Positions 1 through 17,710 of a stretch of 25,277 nucleotides of DNA are shown here, piece by piece (within the stretch, counting starts at the first letter, position 1; every line of letters begins with the position of its first letter). Source of the stretch: a virus. Taxonomy: Duplodnaviria > Caudoviricetes. Both the position numbers and the translations under genes were made by a program. The notes beneath the pieces are model-generated. The model was not told the DNA's origin, did not search any database, and was given only the letters and a program-made list of their open reading frames with translations. The stretch covers positions 1 through 25,277 of the IMG/VR virus record IMGVR_UViG_3300005916_000016; one strand, written 5' to 3'.

Positions 1-202
1 AGCCGAGTGTAATGACATGACGAATGAAGAGAAAAAAAAGTGGGGTGTCGGCGCAATATATATACTAATATACTAATATGCCTGAAATGCCTGATATGCA
101 TGATGTCTTGCTTTGTTTTGTTTGGTTTTGTTTTTCTAGAAGGAGTGACGGTTTCATCGTCACTTCCATGAAGTGCTCTTTTTTTTATTCCCGTAGCTCA
201 CA

Positions 203-2516: not shown

Positions 2517-2876
2517 TTACGCAGAGAAGAGTTTCTCTAACCAGCGACATGCACTAAGCACAACTTGGGCGTTGCGCTTATTGTTGCATACAATGATTGG
2601 TTTCTTCGATGTGGTGATTTTCAATAGTGTCGGCACGACTTTTTTGTCGACTTTCTTTATCTTGTCGAATAACCATGACTTGTAAGACTCCGTCGAAAGT
2701 TTCTGCGAGCAGTCTTTACTAATCCCAAATGGATTCGCAAGAGGCGAATTACCGAGTTTCCAATCTTTGTTCTTTCCGCCAATGTAGAAAAAATCACCAC
2801 CTTTGTTAGCTGGTAGTGACTTCATAGCTTTTTTATCGGCGAAATGTTTCAGCAAGTACACTTTAATCTGTTTCAT
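2517..2876 (-). CDS. DUF4326-like protein (divergent), 119 aa
   Basis: Motifs YIGG...SPLANPF...Y.SWL...IIVC match the DUF4326 pattern (YIGR..S..NPF..Y..WL..L.C); RBS AAAGGAG before ATG 2876; ATGA overlap with the upstream gene. Confidence 0.7.
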   Translation of the reverse strand: MKQIKVYLLKHFADKKAMKSLPANKGGDFFYIGGKNKDWKLGNSPLANPFGISKDCSQKLSTESYKSWLFDKIKKVDKKVVPTLLKITTSKKPIIVCNNKRNAQVVLSACRWLEKLFSA

Positions 2877-3373
2877 GACAAACTCCTTTTTGATTTGTAA
2901 CAAACTACTAAATTGTCAAAACTGGATAGGAATTCAGATAGAGTTTCTCTGCATTCTTGCGGATTTAATCGTCCGAATCCAGCACCTGCCAGTGGCATAC
3001 GAATGTGGGTGGCAGGATTATTTTTTGCGTATTGGGCTAACATGTGGGCTGAGTATTTCAAGAGAAAAACCGAAGCTTTACTACTCCAGTTATACTTGAC
3101 TTGGAATAAGCCAATGCCTACCTTATTATCGGTAGGGTTTTGGAGAACTGTAAACCCGTATAGAAAAATATTAAGATTGTTGGTCGGCTTACTGCCCACT
3201 CTACGAATGTGGACGGCACTCCTTACCGCAATCCCGGGTATACGTTGAGTTAGCTCATATGCACAACCTCTACCCATGACTAATCCTTTCTTAGCAAGGA
3301 AGCCATTGGTGGAAACAATTATAAGTTGTGGGTGCGAGACTAGCTTAAATAACTCTTCACGTTTAAATAACAT
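2873..3373 (-). CDS. Macrodomain ADP-ribose-binding/hydrolase protein (DarG/TARG1-like), 166 aa
   Basis: Motifs STNG...VMGRGCA, FQVKYNW and MPLAGAGFGRL match macrodomain signatures (N..GvMG.G.A, FPTK.HW, P.lG.G.G.L); RBS GAAAGGAG before ATG 3373. Confidence 0.85.
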   Translation of the reverse strand: MLFKREELFKLVSHPQLIIVSTNGFLAKKGLVMGRGCAYELTQRIPGIAVRSAVHIRRVGSKPTNNLNIFLYGFTVLQNPTDNKVGIGLFQVKYNWSSKASVFLLKYSAHMLAQYAKNNPATHIRMPLAGAGFGRLNPQECRETLSEFLSSFDNLVVCYKSKRSLS

Positions 3374-3411
3374 AATCAAACTCCTTTCAAAATCTCAAAA
3401 CCATTAGTTAG

Positions 3412-3461
3412 CAAAAAAAAACAAACAAAAAACATAGAAGTAGCAAGTCCGTTGCCTACTC
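3412..3461 (-). terminator. Terminator/attenuator-like hairpin plus long T tract upstream of the macrodomain gene
   Basis: Minus strand AGTA(G)GCAA-cggac-TTGCTACT followed by TCTATGTTTTTTGTTTGTTTTTTTTT. Confidence 0.5.
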
Positions 3462-3720
3462 CAGCTTGTGTTAGGGTCTAATTCTGATTGAAGCTCCTAG
3501 TGTCCGTGACTTGTCCTACTCCCCTTGCACTGTTGAGACCCCCGTAGGGGTTATCTTTCAGCTACTCTTGCTCAGTTGATACGTCGCCTTTTGGTTTTGG
3601 ACTTCTGTGTTCGCAACGCACAGAACCCCCACTATCCGTTTGCGATTACTTAGAGGGGCTCTCTGTTCTTCGTCATTCGGGGCAAAGGCGCACCCACTCT
3701 GTTGTCAAAGTTCTGCATCG

Positions 3721-3750
3721 TATATAAGACACCATGTTTGAGATTGTCAA
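3721..3750 (-). promoter_or_regulatory. Putative sigma70-type leftward (early) promoter
   Basis: Minus strand perfect TTGACA (3750-3745), then TATATA after an 18-nt spacer; the -10 is imperfect. Confidence 0.45.
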
Positions 3751-3843
3751 GGTCGACAACTTTTTTGTTTCACGTCGTCCTTGATAACCCTAACAGGGCG
3801 ACTGTTCTTGTCGTCTCAACCCGTAGGGCGACTTGTCGACTGG

Positions 3844-3854
3844 TGTGTTATGAT
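3844..3854 (+). promoter_or_regulatory. Extended -10 element (TGTG-T-TATGAT)
   Basis: Matches TRTGnTATAAT with one mismatch; no good -35 at canonical spacing. Confidence 0.4.
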
Positions 3855-4209
3855 GCTCTCTGAACTTATACCTGACAACAGCGTCGGGGCGACACCCGCT
3901 TGACGTGCTAAGAACAGAGAGGGTTTTCCACTCAAGTAACAAGCGAACAGGTGCAGTGGGGTGTGTGTTGTGAACGGTTTATAAGAAGTTCAGTCCCTGC
4001 CAAAAGGTGAGCGTAAAACAACTGACCAGGAGAAGTGTTCTGAAAGTAACCCTCACTGGGGTTGAGACGGGTTTTGCAAGGGGATTAAGGCACTTAGAAC
4101 ACGGTCACGGAGCGGAAGTCTGAGTCAGACTGTCTCGAACACTTGAGCAGAGTAGGCAACGGACGTTTTTGCTACTTCGCACTTCAATTCCAACGTACCT
4201 TAGTCATCT

Positions 4210-4650
4210 CATTGTGCTGTTTGTGCTCACGGAGTGAGCCCGTAACAGTGGTGACAGTTTCATCGTCACGTCTGTTGCGGTTAGCGTGCTTGGTTTTATC
4301 AACGGTGTGTCTGTTCACTCTGTTGCGTGCTCTTATGGTGTAAGAGTGGCAGACTTTGCCATTCACTCTTTCTTACTGCCAGTAAGAGGTAAGCATAGAC
4401 AAGGGGACGAAGGCTTGGTTTACGGCTGTCTAGGGGACAACAGATGGCATTATAAGCGTGACCAGCGGTAGGTCTACATGCTAAAGTATGCTGAATTCCC
4501 TTTGCCGTCAATGGATTCAGGCTGACCTCTGCCACTTGTAGGTGACAACACGCGGTCTCGGCTTGTTCTTCCTGCCTGTTGTTCAGTACACGTGGGTAGG
4601 GGTGGTCGGTGAGGGACGAGCCGACATACAGCTCACTGTGCTCGCCTTGC
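4210..4650 (+). other. Hairpin-dense non-coding domain (structured RNA or ssDNA)
   Basis: Stems at 4225-4239, 4251-4269, 4269-4277/4438-4446, three adjacent hairpins at 4330-4387, and 4558-4569/4612-4624; no ORF with a credible RBS. Confidence 0.55.
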
Positions 4651-4820
4651 TCTCTGTAATTATATATATAAAAGATAATATATATCATCATCATGGTCTT
4701 CACCCCCCTCTTCATGCCCACCCTCCCTCCACCAACATACCAGTATAAACCGCAACACGAAATCTCAGTTTTCTAGATAACCTGTGACATCCTTTGTCAT
4801 CGGTACACCGAAAAGAACCC

Positions 4821-4849
4821 TTGCTAAATGAAGACAAATAGGATACAAT
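4821..4849 (+). promoter_or_regulatory. Sigma70-type promoter for the packaging operon
   Basis: TTGCTA-17 nt-TACAAT, about 40 nt upstream of the first rightward gene. Confidence 0.7.
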
Positions 4850-9657: not shown

Positions 9658-10529
9658 TGAGTTATTATAGTACCTGGGGATTAGGTGGCGGTGGTTCAGT
9701 ACCAAAATCTAAGTCATCCTCTAACTATTATAGTTATGGAGCACCTAAACCTAAACCTAAACCTAAGCCTAGGCAAGTATACGACCCAGTGGCGAGTAAA
9801 TCACCTGCGTCAGGAAAACCACGTTACTCCCCAGAGTCAAGTGCGCCGCCACCAAGCGACAGCCAGTCTAATGTTCCGTCTAACGCGACTGGGACTTCTG
9901 GTAGTGGTAGCTATTGGGCTGAGTACTACAAGAAGAGGGTGCTCGATGCTTCTGGTCAGCAGGCTAAAACAAAACCCGCCGACCGTTACTCTCCTTGGAA
10001 CTTGTTTTCAAAGAGTACTGGGGTCTTTGCTATGGACAACCCAGTTAACCGTGGTCTTTGGAATGCTTGGAAGGGCGCTACGTACGACCCTACGAGGCAG
10101 GGTGGTTTTGGTAGAAACTCTCCCTTCAGTAACCCATTCTTAAACAAGAATTCTGGGGGCTTTGAGTATGGGCGTGGTATGGGGGCAAAGAGTGACTACT
10201 TCCTACAAGAACAGGCTGACGCAGTGTTCAGAAATCAGTGGAGAACTGGTATCGACCCCAATCAAAACAGCAGGTGGCGTGAGCTCGAAAACAGAATACT
10301 AGACCCAGAGCACGTTCTTTATTTTGAAAACGAATTCTTGCCAAGGGGAGACCCAAACCCATACTGGAATCCGTACGAAGAGACTGGTGGCGGTGGTGGA
10401 TATGGCGGTGGTGGATATGGCGGTGGGTATGGCGGTGGTGGGTACGGTGGTTATAGCCCCTACGATTCGTATAGCCCATCCAGCCCGTACTCTAGCTGGT
10501 ATAAACAGTTAATAAACTGGAGAATCTAA
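9657..10529 (+). CDS. Low-complexity Gly/Ser/Tyr-rich protein, putative ejection/internal virion protein
   Basis: RBS GGAGG, TAATG coupling at both ends; disordered composition; sits next to the giant protein. Confidence 0.65.
   Translation: MSYYSTWGLGGGGSVPKSKSSSNYYSYGAPKPKPKPKPRQVYDPVASKSPASGKPRYSPESSAPPPSDSQSNVPSNATGTSGSGSYWAEYYKKRVLDASGQQAKTKPADRYSPWNLFSKSTGVFAMDNPVNRGLWNAWKGATYDPTRQGGFGRNSPFSNPFLNKNSGGFEYGRGMGAKSDYFLQEQADAVFRNQWRTGIDPNQNSRWRELENRILDPEHVLYFENEFLPRGDPNPYWNPYEETGGGGGYGGGGYGGGYGGGGYGGYSPYDSYSPSSPYSSWYKQLINWRI
10386..10454 (+). repeat. Coding tandem repeat (GGCGGTGGTGGATAT)n encoding GGGGY units
   Basis: About 4-5 imperfect 12-15-nt units visible in the sequence. Confidence 0.8.
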
Positions 10530-13500
10530 TGAACGACGTGCGAAAACATCTAAGTGATGACGGAAAGATTAGGAGATACGGAGGGAGCAATCCCACAGCG
10601 CCCAGGGTAGGGAGCTGGACTAAATCCCCCCGATTCATGGCTGCCTGGAAAACTCAACAGCAACCTAAACGTAGCGGCGGAACTAAGCAGAAGCGGCTAA
10701 GGGATGGGATGGAGTTAGCTGCTGGTAGAGAGCCTCGTGGCATGGTTGGCGACCTACGCCATTTAGCTGGCTTACCACAGGATTCTTATAAAAGAGTCGT
10801 GGCGCGTGCTGGAATGAGCGATATTGATATATCTGGCATCAATCCAAAAGCATACGATACGTACCTCGATATGATTGGCGGGCAATACGCAGAATCTATC
10901 GTGCCAGGAAGAATGATAACTGGGAAGAAGGGAGAGCCAATAAACTACTACGCTGACCCCTTAACCCTTGACACCTATAACACAATCATAGAGAACAGTG
11001 AAGACCCAGACAGTCTTCCACCATGGCTTCCTAAAGAAGGTATCCAAGAAGCCTATAAATTCCTAGCTTATACAAACAAAGGGAAGAGCGTTGAAGATTG
11101 GTCAATCGACAAGACCAGTGATGTGTATAATTTCTTGTCTAATTTAGAATCGCCGCCTGCTAGTATGTTATTCCCTCACCAGTATATGAACGATTTAGCT
11201 GATGAGGAATATAGGAGAAAATATAACGCAGGCGGGATGGATAACCTGAGTAAATTGCAGAAACTTCTCATGTCTCCGTTCTACTCACAGCCTTGGATGG
11301 AACTACCCAAACAAGAGATGACGAGAGAGCAGAAGAATAAGATGTTAGGGAGGGATGTTGGTGGCAGTATTCTTGCCGCACTGACGACAGCGCCAATGGC
11401 TGCTATTGCGGTTGGTACTATTGCTGGTGTGAAAATAGGAACTCTAATGCTTCCGTTCATAGCTGTTATGGCGGCGGCGAACTTTGCTGACAGACAACTG
11501 GAACTAGATTCCCCAGGTCTGGCGTCAGTAAATGCGTTTGCTGGTAACGTGCTTAATGCTCTATCTAGAGGTTCGGAGCAGATATATGGAACTCTCGAAC
11601 TAGCTGCTACGGACGAAGAGTTTAAGGAAGTTCTGAATGGGGTTAGTGAGTACTCAATGAGTGAGTACGCGAAGTCTGCATGGCAGGCTAGTCAAATGCG
11701 CTGGGATGTCATGAGAGAGAGCACGATTCTCGACATAGCTGGCGGTCAAAGAACTGACCCAGATGAGATATGGAGAATCGAGCAAGGTGTTCCTAACCCA
11801 GTGAAAGTGGACAAAAGCTGGAAGTGGGGAAAGGAAGCCACGAACGCTATACAAGATGAACTATTAGCTGGTGCTGAAGTCGATGAAGTCATATCACACT
11901 GGGAAGAGGAGTTTGGATTCCAGGGCGTCTTGTCCGACTTGGTTATGCAAAACATAGTAGACCCGCTGAATGTCCTGCCAATGATGTCAAACAGAATACC
12001 ACGTGCTATAGCTAACGGTAAGGTTTCTAAGGTTATAAAGGCTATGGATGCTGCGGGTGACTTTGCCAAACTCGCGAAGGCTATGGATTATGCCGACGAT
12101 GCTTCCGATATAAACAAATTCATAGATGCTTTCAGCAAGGTAGACTCTGCGGAGCTTATAGCGAAGCTACAAGCTACCCCAGAAGGCGCTGATTTTCTGA
12201 AAATCTATGGGAAGATGGACGATATGCGTCTGGCGGGTAACATAGTGAAAGCTGCTGACAACGCTAGAGGTAATGCGTTTATCGACGCGATGCCGTTCCC
12301 AGTTAACATGGTTGCTGGGAGTATATATAAGTTAGTAAAAGGGGAATCTGGCTCTTACGGTGGGGCAGCGGCTGTATTTGAGAACCTGAAGAAAATCTAT
12401 ACAGACGGGTATGCACAGGACGCGGCGAGACAGATTGTTACAAAGGGTGGTAAGGTGAAGAACTTTTACGCGCCGCCTACGTGGTCTCCTATTGAGAGAT
12501 GGTTAGGCGGTATAGATAAGAGCGGTATGCCCAGTTGGGCTACCCCGACGATTCTGCCTGAAGGTAGCGGTTTACTAAAGAAGATTTCTATTTACCTTGG
12601 AAGCCAAACGAATAGCTCTAAGGCTATCAAGTTTGCCCAAAACATGATGACGCATGTATCTGGGATGATGACTGGTCTAAAAGCAGAAGACCAAGTTGGT
12701 ATCCTTTATAGGATGGGAATGCTAGAGGTTGGAGATGGGGCTATAAAAATTGAAGCCAAGCTGAACGGCTTGAGGAAACTGAAGGGGGAGTATATACCAC
12801 TAGACGCAGACCTCGGTGAAGTGTTCGGCACAGCTATGCAAAGAATAGAAATAGACCCAGCTGTCTACGGTTCACAAGCTTCATTTGTGTTTCGGGATGC
12901 TATCAGGAAGGCTATCTCTAAGGGTCTAATCGGTAACGAGTTCCAGAAATGGATTGGAACTACTGACTCCAGAGCTAAATTGAACCAGATGGCTAACGCT
13001 CTAGGGATAGAGCCTAATAAGGTTCTCGATTACGTTGAGAAAGGGGACACAGCTACTCTTTGGAAAAAATTCAAGGGCGCGACGGCGGAAGAACCTATAG
13101 CTGGGTTTGATAGATTCTACGCTATGGGGGACGGTGACGCTACATCTTCAATAGATACTTTGTTGAAGATATTTACGTGGGACGCAGAGAATTCTAGGAA
13201 GATGCCGTGGAATGATGAGTTATTTCACGTTAACCTGCTTAATAAGCTCTCTAAACACGTTGGCGAATACGCTACGAATAGGTACATGTTGACCGAAAAG
13301 AGCGCTATAACGAAATTAATCAGGTATACGAATATCCAAAGGCAGATTCAAGGTGCTCTTGTTCTTGGACTGAATCCAAGATACGCGATATATAACGCTA
13401 TAAACAACATTGTGACCCGTGTTGCCTCTGACAACTTTGGTTACATGAGGTTGACTGATATAGATAACTATAACAAAAGGATGGGATTTGCGAGTTGGAA

Positions 13501-16500
13501 CGACGCAATCGACTTTGGTGACTGGAAATTCGAGGGCGAGGGCATGGATATTCAGAAGACCAAGATAAAGATTGACGACATTAACTATAAATTCGAGCAC
13601 GAGTGGATGGAAAAACTCGCCAGAGGAGCTAACGCAGTTTCTATTTTCAAAAAACTGTCTAATAACATAGAGTCTGCGCATGCTAGAAAATCCTACATGA
13701 ACGGCTTGAAGAAGTATTGGGACAATACGTGGGCTGGTGCTATCCCAGGGATGGATAACATCAACCTGCCGTCTAATGTGAAGAAATCCATTATGGCTAA
13801 AGTGATAGGCTCTCTGAATATGGATGAAGTGAGAACTGGTATATTCAAAGGCAACCCTGAAGAGATAGATATTAATATCTACACAAGAAGAGTTGCTGAG
13901 AATATGGCTAAGGACACCATCCTCACGCCAGAAATTCTTTCAGAGATAATTGATGATAGTGTCCTGCGGGCTTTGAAGACAGAGTTAGCAGGAGCACGAA
14001 CGGAAGGCGACGTCGCTCGCGCTATTGAAAGGGTGCAAAGCGGTAATCTGGACTTCATAAGAAGGGCTATGGACGAAGATTTCAAGACAAGGGGAGCAGA
14101 TATTCAGGCACGCATGAAGGACTCTGGTGCTTACACTGCTGCGAAAGAGTACGTTGATATGCAAATGTATCACCAAATGGAACATATAGCTCACTTCAGA
14201 GCTATTGATGCTGCCATATCCTCTATGGAAGGAATGACCTACAAACAAAGGAGCAAGGTATGGGACGGGATAGAGTTATCTGAAAATAAGCGATTCAAGG
14301 TACTTAATAAATGGCTCAGGAATTCAGAGGAGAACATCTTCGGCGCTGTGGCAGAATTAGACCCAGGCTCAAAAGCAAGGTACGATACACACCTTACTTC
14401 AATGAGTATGCTAGAAGAAATGTGGAGGAGGTTTTATAAGAAGCGTGGCACTATATGGCGCAAAACCTTCACCGCAGAGTACGTAGACGTCGAAGCTAAG
14501 AACTTGGCTTTTGATGCGGCAAGGCTGGAAGTCGACGGGTTGGCTGATACTGCCTACGACTTCGAGATGAGGATGTATGATAGGTCCGCTAATGCTCTGT
14601 TTGGCGGCGGTACGAGACCACCTGTTGCTCCAGATGCTGTTGGAGAATCTACTGGAATCAAAGCTGTTGGCGGTGAGGCTCAACCAGAAATCCCAATCGG
14701 TTCGCCAGAATCTCCTTACACGTATGACGCAGGGACTCTTAAGCGTTTTAGGGCGGGCGTTCCTGTAAAACCAGCGTATAGGATTGGTGAAGACGTCTTT
14801 GTTGGTGTTTTGCACGTTGATGCGATAAACGCTGCTAAGCAAAGCGGAGGTTACGACCAACCTGATGTGGGTGTAATTCGTAGACTCAGCGATGGCAAAG
14901 AATTCGGTATTGTTGAAGACGGTGACCTTGGTTTTTACGAGACGTCTAGCGGAAAATTCTTGACGCCCGAAGAATCGCGAGCAAAGTATGATGTAGCGTC
15001 ATCAAAAGAATTCCTTGATAAGTACCCGCTCGAAGACATGCCCGTAGATAGCGGTCTTCCTAGAGGTATGACTATCCAAGAAGTTAACACTGTTCAACAA
15101 GCAAACAGATGGTTCAAGAAAGTAGGCGATAACGGTCTCGTTACGTCGGAAAAGGCATGGAAGAAAGGGACAGCAGGGGTTTTGACGGAAAAACTAGAAG
15201 CTATGGGTATCAAAACGAAGACAAAGTTTGCTGGTGGGGAAGAGGTCTACGTAGAGATAAGCGAAAACGACTGGGAAATGATAAAGGATTTAGCCTCGGA
15301 GTCTCAGAGGATAGCAGACGTCGAGGGCGTCGAGATACCATACACTAGGACAGATGGCAGTACTATGCCAGAATCGCACATTGATGCTGTAAAGACGTGG
15401 TTAGAGCACGTCAAGAACGCAAGAAAGGATATGATTGAAGCTGTAAGAGCGCACAGGAAGAAGATGATAGACGACCCGCCTACGAGTTATGGAGACCGTT
15501 TGGCTAGAAACAGTAAGTTCTATAACGAAGACTACACTAAGTTGATTATGGAGCTGCATAACGCTGAGATTGAGGGCGCTATGTTTGCAGTATCCTCAAA
15601 AGGGAGAGTTCCTAGCCAAATCAATAACGGCAGCATTACGAAGATGGAAGCATACATGAACCACCTGAAGCCGATGTTGGACGGTATAGGTACAGAGATT
15701 GCTAACGATATAAGAAGTGATGACCTTTACGACGGTAGTAAACTAACGACAGGACAAGCTAACGAAATAAACTCGTGGTTGAATCAGGTTGACCAGAACA
15801 TGAGGTCAAATAAATTTCAAGCCGTGAAGTACGGCGAAGCCATGAAGGACTACACGATGCTTGATTACACCCATAGAACTGGGTGGGACGAGGCTTACTC
15901 GGTACTCTTCCCGTACCAATTCTGGTATACGCACTCATTTAGAAACTGGGCAATGAGGACTCTCGATAACACGAGTATGTTCTCCTCATTCTACAGGCTC
16001 AGAGATGCCCAGAAACAGATGGGCAAGATTGGAGTTCCAAGTAGGATGGAGAATAAACTACGCCTTCCTTGGGCATTTTTACCAGAGTGGGCTGGAGGGT
16101 CAACATACTTTGACCCGTACTCGCAATTCTTCCCGCCTAGCTCTCTATTCTCAATGCTTGACGTATTTAATGACGATAAGAGCCAACTCTATAGGACTGC
16201 CTATTATCACCTATCAGATATGGCTAAGCTCGGAGAGATTACGGAAGAACAGGCTATGAAGGCTAGAGAAACAGGAGAGGGCGATGAGTGGGATATGGCT
16301 CTCGAATGGGCGAACACAAACACTGGTTTTTCTGACCCGTATACACTCGCTTCTCAGTTCATGCAGCCAGCTATGAATATAGATATTGGTATTAACCTTC
16401 TTAAAGGTACGCCAGAGGAGATACCGCCAACACCTATATTGAATCTGTCTAGGGAGATGAAGAGCATGGTAGGTGAAGATACCGCTGCTGGTACGATACT

Positions 16501-17710
16501 TGGTGCTCCTGCTTGGGCAGAAGGCAAAGTTCGCCAAGCTTACGGTATGACACCAGCGCAAGCACAGTTTGGCTCATTCGGCGATTATTACGTGAAGAGA
16601 CAGCTTGCTGGCATGATGACTATGAGCGAGATAAGCCCAGAGAATTATTCAAAGACACTACTGGATATGCAAAATGGGAAGTACGACTCTGAGTGGTACA
16701 AAATTGCTTATTCGAGAGCTTTAGAAGAGGTGAACATGAAGCAACCAGGGTATCTAGGCATGATGGCTGCAAAAGGAGGAGCTAGTTTGGCTGTTATAGG
16801 GGCTACAACTTTCGTATCTATGTTCCCACATGGCGTCATCACCCAAGGCGAACTCGAATACAGAGGACACCAGAGGCAAAACAACAGAGCGTGGGAGATT
16901 TATAATGCCACTGGAGATAAGACTGCTATGAATGAATTCTATGACGAGCACCCAGAGTATCGTTTGCGCTCTAATATTTTCATTGATGACCCGAAGTTGC
17001 AGGCTAAGAGTCTATTAATAACTAATATATGGGACTTATATACTGGCTTAGATAAAGCTAACCAAAAGATAGCTATAGAAGCATTCGGACAAGAGTTCCA
17101 GAGAGCTTTCTTTGATGACGCGACGAAGGACGAGTTCTCAGTAGAACTAGATACGCTTGCTAGATGGGCACAGATGCTGGGCTCTTCAATCCCAGAATCT
17201 ATCCCAGAAGTACAGGAAGCGTTCTTGGAAGAACCAGTACACGAACTAGATATGTGGGACGACCAACATGCCAAGGACTACGGAGATTTCATCAAGGAGA
17301 GGGAAAAGTTTTTCCCGACTTGGTACGTCCTACAATCAAAATACTATGACCTACCCGAAAACGAGAGGTATCAGTTTACAAGAGACTTCCCCCAATTCCA
17401 AGAATATCGAGACTGGAAAAAAGATTACCTGAAGAAAAAACCAGGTATCTCTTCGGTAGTAGAGTCTGGTTCTATAAACTACGGTACTAAAGATGGGCTG
17501 AAAGGGTTTTTGACGGCAGAGGAAGCGGAATCTATCCCTGCCTTGTTATCAAATAGCTTGATTGCTCACTTCACATTCGACCAACCTTTAGGGGCTGGTG
17601 CTCTAATGTTGTTAGAGGATATGTGGATAACAGCGGGTAAACCTGGAAAAGATTTCAAAAGATGGTTAAACTACGAAATCGCTCCAAATTACACGCTACT
17701 TGTAAAATAA
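10529..17710 (+). CDS. Giant (2393 aa) internal virion / DNA-ejection protein
   Basis: Mostly helical, within the virion module, with a hydrophobic segment (SILAALTTAPMAAIAVGTIAGVKIGTLMLPFIAVMAAA) and a 'LDY...LFPYQFW' region resembling C-terminal parts of large podophage injected proteins. Confidence 0.7.
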   Translation: MNDVRKHLSDDGKIRRYGGSNPTAPRVGSWTKSPRFMAAWKTQQQPKRSGGTKQKRLRDGMELAAGREPRGMVGDLRHLAGLPQDSYKRVVARAGMSDIDISGINPKAYDTYLDMIGGQYAESIVPGRMITGKKGEPINYYADPLTLDTYNTIIENSEDPDSLPPWLPKEGIQEAYKFLAYTNKGKSVEDWSIDKTSDVYNFLSNLESPPASMLFPHQYMNDLADEEYRRKYNAGGMDNLSKLQKLLMSPFYSQPWMELPKQEMTREQKNKMLGRDVGGSILAALTTAPMAAIAVGTIAGVKIGTLMLPFIAVMAAANFADRQLELDSPGLASVNAFAGNVLNALSRGSEQIYGTLELAATDEEFKEVLNGVSEYSMSEYAKSAWQASQMRWDVMRESTILDIAGGQRTDPDEIWRIEQGVPNPVKVDKSWKWGKEATNAIQDELLAGAEVDEVISHWEEEFGFQGVLSDLVMQNIVDPLNVLPMMSNRIPRAIANGKVSKVIKAMDAAGDFAKLAKAMDYADDASDINKFIDAFSKVDSAELIAKLQATPEGADFLKIYGKMDDMRLAGNIVKAADNARGNAFIDAMPFPVNMVAGSIYKLVKGESGSYGGAAAVFENLKKIYTDGYAQDAARQIVTKGGKVKNFYAPPTWSPIERWLGGIDKSGMPSWATPTILPEGSGLLKKISIYLGSQTNSSKAIKFAQNMMTHVSGMMTGLKAEDQVGILYRMGMLEVGDGAIKIEAKLNGLRKLKGEYIPLDADLGEVFGTAMQRIEIDPAVYGSQASFVFRDAIRKAISKGLIGNEFQKWIGTTDSRAKLNQMANALGIEPNKVLDYVEKGDTATLWKKFKGATAEEPIAGFDRFYAMGDGDATSSIDTLLKIFTWDAENSRKMPWNDELFHVNLLNKLSKHVGEYATNRYMLTEKSAITKLIRYTNIQRQIQGALVLGLNPRYAIYNAINNIVTRVASDNFGYMRLTDIDNYNKRMGFASWNDAIDFGDWKFEGEGMDIQKTKIKIDDINYKFEHEWMEKLARGANAVSIFKKLSNNIESAHARKSYMNGLKKYWDNTWAGAIPGMDNINLPSNVKKSIMAKVIGSLNMDEVRTGIFKGNPEEIDINIYTRRVAENMAKDTILTPEILSEIIDDSVLRALKTELAGARTEGDVARAIERVQSGNLDFIRRAMDEDFKTRGADIQARMKDSGAYTAAKEYVDMQMYHQMEHIAHFRAIDAAISSMEGMTYKQRSKVWDGIELSENKRFKVLNKWLRNSEENIFGAVAELDPGSKARYDTHLTSMSMLEEMWRRFYKKRGTIWRKTFTAEYVDVEAKNLAFDAARLEVDGLADTAYDFEMRMYDRSANALFGGGTRPPVAPDAVGESTGIKAVGGEAQPEIPIGSPESPYTYDAGTLKRFRAGVPVKPAYRIGEDVFVGVLHVDAINAAKQSGGYDQPDVGVIRRLSDGKEFGIVEDGDLGFYETSSGKFLTPEESRAKYDVASSKEFLDKYPLEDMPVDSGLPRGMTIQEVNTVQQANRWFKKVGDNGLVTSEKAWKKGTAGVLTEKLEAMGIKTKTKFAGGEEVYVEISENDWEMIKDLASESQRIADVEGVEIPYTRTDGSTMPESHIDAVKTWLEHVKNARKDMIEAVRAHRKKMIDDPPTSYGDRLARNSKFYNEDYTKLIMELHNAEIEGAMFAVSSKGRVPSQINNGSITKMEAYMNHLKPMLDGIGTEIANDIRSDDLYDGSKLTTGQANEINSWLNQVDQNMRSNKFQAVKYGEAMKDYTMLDYTHRTGWDEAYSVLFPYQFWYTHSFRNWAMRTLDNTSMFSSFYRLRDAQKQMGKIGVPSRMENKLRLPWAFLPEWAGGSTYFDPYSQFFPPSSLFSMLDVFNDDKSQLYRTAYYHLSDMAKLGEITEEQAMKARETGEGDEWDMALEWANTNTGFSDPYTLASQFMQPAMNIDIGINLLKGTPEEIPPTPILNLSREMKSMVGEDTAAGTILGAPAWAEGKVRQAYGMTPAQAQFGSFGDYYVKRQLAGMMTMSEISPENYSKTLLDMQNGKYDSEWYKIAYSRALEEVNMKQPGYLGMMAAKGGASLAVIGATTFVSMFPHGVITQGELEYRGHQRQNNRAWEIYNATGDKTAMNEFYDEHPEYRLRSNIFIDDPKLQAKSLLITNIWDLYTGLDKANQKIAIEAFGQEFQRAFFDDATKDEFSVELDTLARWAQMLGSSIPESIPEVQEAFLEEPVHELDMWDDQHAKDYGDFIKEREKFFPTWYVLQSKYYDLPENERYQFTRDFPQFQEYRDWKKDYLKKKPGISSVVESGSINYGTKDGLKGFLTAEEAESIPALLSNSLIAHFTFDQPLGAGALMLLEDMWITAGKPGKDFKRWLNYEIAPNYTLLVK

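What the first reader, a model, noticed from the sequence alone, without database searches (positions are those of the whole stretch)
3437..4178. ~740-nt rod-like fold-back with strand-specific G-T wobbles at the divergence point of the phage genome
Seen: more than a dozen nested complementary blocks pair 3437-3759 with 3833-4178, interrupted by bulges, giving a viroid/6S-like rod. By manual alignment most transition differences between the arms (roughly ten versus two) give G-T pairs on the + strand, e.g. GTTCGCAACGCAC/GTGTGTTGTGAAC, GCATCGTA/TATGATGC, CGCCTTTTGG/CCAAAAGGTG. A neutrally decaying duplication would not favour one strand. Inference: the + strand folds as a single strand (RNA or ssDNA). 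I recognise no known ncRNA family, and such an element is not a standard part of a podophage.
Basis: partly seen in the sequence, partly recalled or inferred. Interest (0 to 1): 0.92.

Follow-up and report, generated by a model that had tools for sequence, protein, structure and literature searches.

The report
Fold-activated DNA promoter in tailed phage
A salt-lake tailed phage carries a 742-base fold-back whose folded form is predicted to assemble a complete bacterial promoter that is broken in the normal double helix, so it likely switches on the neighbouring macrodomain gene (a probable counter-defence gene) only when that DNA strand is single-stranded, a trick known from conjugative plasmids.

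Summary
The rod is real: 3437-4178, z -15 to -25, 47 short helices, present in a second assembly and another run, no Rfam match. G-T pairs favour the + strand (14-22 vs 4-6) and 4-nt bulges are in excess. The new result is at the apex. Folded as DNA, the + strand extrudes two twin mini-hairpins at four-way junctions, bringing together a -35 box, a 17-nt spacer and a TRTG-extended -10 box that point down the stem into the leftward macrodomain gene. This reading scores like the phage's own strong promoters (22.8 vs 20-25); the best double-stranded reading scores 14.3. The F-plasmid single-strand promoters Frpo1/2 share strand polarity and T-rich loops but no sequence. Best reading (0.55): an Frpo-like single-stranded-DNA promoter or primer site in a tailed dsDNA phage, rather than a viroid- or 6S-like RNA. 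An unrelated T7-like phage has a 793-nt rod in the same terminase-to-macrodomain position with the same polarity, but without the promoter. Against: no homologue for covariation, no expression data, promoter found post hoc, six family relatives lack a rod, and no single-stranded stage is shown.

The parts
3437..4178 (+). Whole fold-back rod; + strand is the better-folding strand and the template of the leftward genes
3437..3752 (+). 5' arm; predicted template for leftward transcription
   Evidence: orientation of ORFs
3745..3750 (-). -35 box, perfect TTGACA read on the - strand; paired in the fold with 3781-3786
   Evidence: pair probabilities 0.80-0.97 at 37 C, DNA parameters
3751..3780 (+). 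Apical hairpin with a T run, at the place of an UP element (inferred; F Frpo also has an A/T-rich apex)
3781..3786 (+). Non-template partner of the -35 box (TTGATA); 62 nt from the -10 box in duplex DNA
3788..3813 (+). Twin mini-hairpin insertion 1 (26 nt), extruded at a four-way junction
   Evidence: pair probabilities 0.95-0.98; 57 of 20000 shuffles form two abutting hairpins
3814..3819 (+). Spacer helix, pairs with 3738-3743
   Evidence: pair probabilities 0.86-0.96
3820..3838 (+). Twin mini-hairpin insertion 2 (19 nt, paralogue of insertion 1, C-GTA-G triloop), second four-way junction
   Evidence: pair probabilities 0.64-0.89; 26 of 20000 shuffles
3844..3854 (+). TRTG-extended -10 box (TATGAT at 3849-3854), non-template strand in the fold; also an orphan rightward extended -10 in duplex DNA
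3720..3723 (+). 4-nt template bulge inside the -10 region; the same 4 nt break the -10 of the leftward duplex reading
3856..3861 (+). Unpaired bubble just downstream of the -10 box; predicted start opposite about 3712-3715
   Evidence: unpaired probability 0.72-0.99 at 5 of 6 positions
3839..4178 (+). 3' arm with most of the 3-6-nt T-rich bulges (GTTT-type in 4 of them)
   Evidence: 2 A among 43 bulged letters, p 2e-4
3381..3436 (-). U-rich tract then AGGAG ribosome site between the rod base and the first gene
   Evidence: sequence
2873..3373 (-). First leftward gene, macrodomain (ADP-ribose-processing fold), 63 nt from the rod base
   Evidence: profile A5 vs PDB 5m3i E 4.9e-10, 5m31 1.2e-8; phrog_335; weak DarG model hit below cut-off
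2517..2876 (-). Second leftward gene; weak fold likeness to DUF488/DUF4326, under the naming bar
4821..4849 (+). Ordinary rightward promoter for the terminase/structural operon, conserved in relatives

Best explanation
The rod is likely a single-stranded-DNA promoter: when the + strand is unpaired it is predicted to fold so that two twin mini-hairpins loop out, a -35 box, a 17-nt spacer and an extended -10 box line up over a pre-opened bubble, and host RNA polymerase would then transcribe leftwards down the stem into the macrodomain operon and/or lay an RNA primer for second-strand synthesis. Shown: the fold-back, its strand bias, the box positions, and their disruption in duplex DNA (left copy's -10 interrupted by 4 nt, right copy's -35 displaced by 45 nt). 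Inferred: polymerase use, the start site near 3712, and the source of single-stranded DNA (most simply 5'-to-3' resection of a genome end lying to the right, or exposure of the + strand during replication). The many bulges would keep the duplex form from extruding while leaving the single strand able to fold.
For: Fold-read promoter scores 14, equal to the three best duplex promoters of G001; - strand folded 7; duplex readings 9-10; 0 of 5000 structure-preserving shuffles reach 14. With a matrix from the phage's own promoters: leave-one-out 20.1-25.0, fold-read 22.8, best duplex reading in the window 14.3 against a background near 13. Junction helices stable at 15-37 C. Four signals name the same strand: G-T excess, promoter direction, T-rich loops (T 0.41 on +, A 0.43 on -) as in F Frpo at ssb (T 0.37 template, A 0.43 sense), and + being template of the adjacent genes. 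Rod base 63 nt from the start codon; 45-46 nt in F. The first gene is a macrodomain; G001 also encodes ArdC. A second, unrelated phage (L370) has a 793-nt rod between terminase and a macrodomain gene with G-T 18:3 or 30:11 on the template strand, z -18.
Against: The promoter was spotted by eye and the 14-point scorer was written afterwards; its shuffles do not model duplication of an ancestral promoter, in which each copy could lose a different box. The matrix used 5 of the 7 duplex promoters scoring 12 or more. The same scorers give F Frpo only 5-9, not above their nulls. The L370 rod has no fold-built promoter (best 9), mostly 1-nt bulges and an ORF in one arm. Orphan extended -10 boxes are common in this phage family, so 3844-3854 may act rightwards in duplex DNA. 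No relaxase or rolling-circle Rep among 58 ORFs scanned, and no single-stranded stage is shown. Six complete or near-complete family relatives have no rod (best 46-82 vs 236). No homologue, so no covariation. G-T excess falls to p 0.016-0.096 after allowing for skew.
Confidence: 0.55

Rival explanations
1. Inverted duplication of a promoter plus leader, now two back-to-back copies that decay or work as weak divergent duplex promoters; the folded promoter is a by-product of complementary decay.
For: Both arms carry remnants of the same promoter; the best duplex score in the window is the leftward copy (14.3); the right copy keeps an extended -10; relatives lack the rod; the relative L005 stops aligning 78 bases from its contig start, near 4345.
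Against: 4-nt gaps are 7-11 of 24-30; 0 of 300 simulated decays reach the observed count in each of 4 settings. The spacer insertions fold end to end into twin hairpins (57 and 26 of 20000 shuffles; the two are paralogues, so count once). No + strand deamination bias in 13 polarised transitions (5 vs 8).
Confidence: 0.15
2. A transcribed rod RNA: either a + strand non-coding RNA (decoy or nuclease precursor) or a - strand leader of the leftward operon.
For: G-U pairs and tandem/triple G-A loops on +; no helix over 15 bp. On the - strand, loops are A-rich as in many RNAs, two C-UACG-G loops are possible and a U tract follows the base; - strand promoter-like sites at 4476 and 4688.
Against: No promoter-like site just upstream of 3437 on +; no Rfam match; exact promoter boxes with correct spacing have no evident use in A-form RNA (established knowledge); a - strand RNA would carry 14-22 A-C mismatches; F Frpo shows the same T-rich template / A-rich sense pattern.
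Confidence: 0.15
3. A single-stranded DNA signal for genome-end processing, packaging or concatemer joining, bound by phage proteins at its bulges and junctions; the promoter is secondary.
For: Both rods found lie between terminase genes and the first oppositely or co-directed early-type gene; the L370 rod has the polarity but no promoter; G001 encodes an exonuclease and a VRR-NUC protein.
Against: Does not explain the matched boxes and 17-nt spacer; relatives with the same terminase family have no rod; genome ends are not mapped.
Confidence: 0.13
4. Assembly or amplification artefact.
For: Fold-back artefacts occur in such data (L177).
Against: Arms diverged with 24-31 gaps; same sequence in G001 and in contigs of runs X2, X4, X8, X9, X12 over parts of the rod.
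Confidence: 0.02

Closest known systems
Frpo1/Frpo2 (ssiD) of plasmid F and ssi1-3 of ColIb-P9/pESBL: class 1 single-stranded-DNA promoters (passages of PMC9849209, PMC11541004, PMC12672017)
   Same: Non-coding bulged rod just upstream of anti-defence-type genes; folds best on their template strand; T-rich loops; A/T-rich apex, then -35, bulge-corrected 17-nt spacer, TGTG element, pointing to the gene.
   Different: 742 vs 317 nt; no sequence similarity; near-consensus boxes; spacer interrupted by two four-way junctions; excess 4-nt bulges (F: 0-2); sits in a tailed dsDNA phage with no relaxase found.
RNA-polymerase-dependent single-strand origins (sso) of rolling-circle plasmids, ICEBs1 and ssDNA phages (passages of PMC4595007)
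   Same: Folded single strand recognised as a promoter; orientation-specific.
   Different: Genome has a lambda-O-like initiator and DnaB-like helicase, no rolling-circle Rep found; one long rod rather than several stem-loops.
Coliphage N4 virion RNA polymerase hairpin promoters (recalled; search listing only)
   Same: Hairpin promoter on the template strand of a tailed phage; C-GNA-G mini-hairpins present at 3540, 3820, 4225.
   Different: Host-type boxes here; the 2393-aa virion-module protein has no Pfam, PHROG or PDB match.
Obelisks/viroids, 6S RNA, ROOL/GOLLD
   Same: Rod shape (Obelisks, viroids, 6S) or large non-coding stretch in a phage (ROOL, GOLLD).
   Different: DNA-encoded, no ORF over 53 codons, no ribozyme or other Rfam match, no large central bubble.
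T5 injection-stop region (passages of 10.1101/866236)
   Same: Long non-coding, palindrome-rich stretch in a tailed phage.
   Different: iss is many short repeats with DnaA boxes, conserved across T5-like phages; this is one rod absent from family relatives.

Membership tests
Frpo/ssi single-stranded-DNA promoters | Long imperfect stem-loop in an intergenic region, on the template strand of the adjacent genes | tested here: met
Frpo/ssi single-stranded-DNA promoters | Folding rebuilds -35 and -10 boxes pointing to the genes | tested here: met
   (prediction only)
Frpo/ssi single-stranded-DNA promoters | Inactive in duplex form | tested here: inconclusive
   duplex 14.3 vs fold 22.8, but an orphan rightward extended -10 and a weak leftward reading remain
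Frpo/ssi single-stranded-DNA promoters | In the leading region of a conjugative element (oriT, relaxase) | tested here: not met
   terminase, capsid, O-like initiator; no relaxase hit among 58 ORFs
Frpo/ssi single-stranded-DNA promoters | Sequence homology to class 1 elements | tested here: not met
   local scores 18-20 vs shuffles 19; no match in 72,556 plasmids
Frpo/ssi single-stranded-DNA promoters | Transcription from single-stranded DNA shown | not testable with these tools
   needs in vitro transcription or 5' RACE
RNAP-dependent single-strand origin | On a replicon with a rolling-circle initiator | tested here: not met
RNAP-dependent single-strand origin | Raises second-strand synthesis in an orientation-specific assay | not testable with these tools
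   bench assay
Obelisk/viroid-like RNA | Circular RNA without DNA form, with Oblin ORF or ribozyme | tested here: not met
   in DNA runs and a phage contig; longest ORF 53 codons; 0 Rfam hits
6S RNA | About 190-nt rod with central bubble (recalled), Rfam 6S model | tested here: not met
   742 nt, largest stem loops 2x8 and 7x3
ROOL/GOLLD | Match to the Rfam models; multi-domain fold | tested here: not met
N4-type virion RNAP promoter | Phage encodes a virion RNA polymerase | tested here: inconclusive
   2393-aa protein without match; Atlas gives unnamed viral clusters and LPD38 on 20% of one cluster at 0.88; not folded

The most novel reading that the evidence does not exclude
Some tailed dsDNA phages expose the template strand of their first genes as single-stranded DNA next to the terminase region and use a long fold-back there as a strand-state sensor; in this phage it builds a split promoter through four-way junctions and makes an ADP-ribose-removing macrodomain exactly when phage DNA is single-stranded and open to DarT-type attack. 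The unrelated L370 rod would be a second, independent origin of the same arrangement.
Probability: 0.25. Interest if true: 0.9.

Novelty: new variant of a known kind. Interest (0 to 1): 0.77.

Why it matters
Single-strand promoters are described for conjugative elements and rolling-circle replicons; nine literature searches showed none for host polymerase in a tailed dsDNA phage. If this one works, a dsDNA phage reads the single-stranded state of its own genome as a timing signal, which implies an unrecognised single-stranded step at entry, end processing or replication. The split design (boxes held 62 nt apart until two hairpin pairs loop out) is a clean natural switch that can be tested with one synthetic strand and purified polymerase.

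Tried and rejected
Homologues of the rod: none in 50,697 phage records, 72,556 plasmids, the first 83 loci, 10 relative genomes or exact-motif scans of viral contigs (followed up in 58, 87: chance hits only). The closest relative (terminase 93%) begins about 90 nt right of the rod. Eight run layings gave no variant listed inside the rod (tables partly cut), so covariation could not be tested. No RNA holder listed. Fold-back scan of 250 loci: four scored 156-184 at maximal span and were not inspected; 25 genome loci scored at most 130 and were not inspected. First scan parameters were uninformative and replaced. Helical phasing of bulges: not significant, P 0.14. Ribozyme, REP/REPIN, MITE (no flanking duplication by eye) and hairpin-telomere ideas: no support. 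Two-sequence consensus fold of 4335-4830 did not pick a strand. The 4179-4800 flank is not more stable than shuffles. Host not identified. Of 46 other viral loci with a macrodomain relative, 45 have no rod (best 64). Supplement figure S6 of PMC9849209 and file 5 of PMC11541004 could not be seen; they may mark Frpo boxes differently from my reading.

Full report
Setting. The window is a viral record estimated 57% complete and lies whole in a 46.6-kb record, G001. It holds terminase, capsid and an SU10-type adaptor; G001 adds a lambda-O-like initiator, DnaB-like helicase, exonuclease, GH25 endolysin and ArdC. All 22 runs listed as holding the stretch are salt-lake DNA metagenomes; no RNA holder was listed. 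The host was not identified. The finding lies in the gap between leftward genes (first start codon 3373) and the rightward terminase operon (4888).

A strand-neutral scan returns exactly 3437-4178. Folding is far beyond shuffles on both strands as RNA (z -19.5, -24.7) and DNA (z -14.65, -14.62), so z-scores do not choose a strand, though + gains more energy. There are 47 helices, none over 15 bp. In 10 of 10 neutral alignments G-T on + exceeds A-C (14-22 vs 4-6). Strand-biased mutation could do this; 13 polarised third-position transitions in the terminase gene gave 5 for and 8 against, and allowing for compositional skew leaves p 0.016-0.096. New features: 7-11 of 24-30 gaps are exactly 4 nt, reached by 0 of 300 simulated decays in each of four settings, and the 3-6-nt extras of the 3' arm hold 2 A in 43 letters. 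The rod is not an artefact. Rfam gives nothing.

A control changed the reading. [quoted passage not shown] Both fold better on the template strand of those genes, and the one at ssb has T-rich loops on that strand and A-rich loops on the other, as here. The plain promoter scan finds nothing in that Frpo, so its silence on the window rod excludes nothing. In the window, + is the template of the leftward genes and the rod base is 63 nt from the start codon.

The apex. With DNA parameters the 5' arm stays paired from 3724 to 3752 apart from single unpaired bases, while the 3' side loops out two twin mini-hairpins (3788-3813, 3820-3838) at four-way junctions. That leaves a -35 duplex (TTGACA on the - reading at 3750-3745, partner TTGATA at 3781-3786), 17 non-template spacer nucleotides, and TGTG plus TATGAT at 3844-3854, with a 4-nt template bulge in the -10 region and an open bubble at 3856-3861. 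It points down the stem to the leftward gene. In duplex DNA the left copy's -10 is interrupted and the right copy's -35 is 62 nt away. Scores: folded + 14, folded - 7, duplex 9-10, top three G001 promoters 14, 0 of 5000 structure-preserving shuffles. A matrix from 5 of the 7 best G001 promoters (the two without TTGACA left out) gives leave-one-out 20.1-25.0, fold-read 22.8, best duplex reading in the window 14.3. With RNA parameters the -35 helix forms but the junctions differ. These tests were designed after seeing the boxes, and do not model a duplicated ancestral promoter. F Frpo shows the same layout but scores 8-9, within its null.

The genes. A profile of 40 of the 150 listed relatives of the first gene matches macrodomains in the PDB (5m3i E 4.9e-10; that these entries are DarG domains is recalled); the DarG model hit is weak. 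A counter-defence role is inferred.

Distribution. No homologue of the rod was found, and six complete or near-complete relatives (terminase 44-57%) have no rod anywhere. Of 46 other viral loci with a macrodomain relative, one, L370, has a 793-nt rod (z -18) between T7-type terminase genes and that gene, again G-T-biased on the gene's template strand (18:3 or 30:11). It shares no sequence, has mostly 1-nt bulges, no fold-built promoter and an ORF in one arm; no Rfam match reaches threshold. It supports the context and polarity, not the promoter.

Mechanism. Most likely (0.55) host polymerase uses the folded + strand as a promoter and/or primer site, as described for Frpo and single-strand origins (passages of PMC9849209, PMC12672017, PMC4595007; Masai and Arai 1997 not read). 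The source of single-stranded DNA is inferred: resection of an end lying to the right would expose +, as would replication with + as lagging template; ArdC-N is described as single-strand binding and mostly in conjugative elements (passages of PMC5512222). Rivals: duplicated promoter-leader (0.15), rod RNA (0.15), end-processing signal (0.13), artefact (0.02).

Comparison and novelty. It works like an Frpo but fails membership on context and homology. It is not an Obelisk (abstract start of PMC10827157 seen), 6S, ROOL or GOLLD RNA (passages of PMC5737381, PMC9241854), nor like the T5 stop region (passages of 10.1101/866236). Nine searches showed no report of such an element in a tailed dsDNA phage; subscription papers were not searchable. 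Earlier notes of this scan describe similar template-strand hairpins in phages and conjugative elements; they are unchecked leads. Verdict: real, new variant of a known kind, interest 0.77.

Noticed in passing
window 4347-4361; G003-G007: Palindrome TGGCA-N5-TGCCA (inner letters usually AAGTT or AACTT) recurs 4-10 times per genome in five family relatives and 3 times in G001, spread along the genomes; none in G010. Probable protein-binding site.
   Followed up: partly
L088 263-292, 2221-2250, 7147-7171, 9361-9385; window 4785-4799: The strongest G001 promoters share a TGACA-N5-TG(T/G)CA palindrome over the -35 box; the same palindrome lies upstream of the terminase-operon promoter and is conserved in relatives. 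The fold-built promoter lacks the second half-site.
   Followed up: partly
window 146-163 and 4253-4270: Near-identical 18-nt hairpin in both intergenic regions, same strand; a run contig matches 4234-4284 with unlike flanks.
   Followed up: partly
window 4592-4735; L005 320-475: G-rich and C-rich tracts flanking an AT-rich stretch can pair; one compensatory change against L005; L174's contig starts just right of it. Possible packaging-start region.
   Followed up: partly
L370 2629-3421 and 3782-3870: 793-nt rod in a T7-like phage with a 167-codon ORF of no family in one arm and ribosome sites sequestered at the apex; downstream a TTGACA and a TATAAT are separated by a long hairpin.
   Followed up: partly
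window 10529-17710: 2393-aa protein between portal-position and capsid genes with no Pfam, PHROG or PDB match; C-terminal part conserved in the family.
   Followed up: partly
L177 6139-6251: Perfect fold-back absent from the same place in L099: an assembly or amplification artefact.
   Followed up: yes
L004 1-54; L088 1-120: Both ends of G001 break in G/C-run low-complexity sequence, next to a consensus early promoter.
   Followed up: no
L227, L168, L220, L016: Fold-back scores 156-184 at maximal span; not inspected, may be compositional.
   Followed up: no
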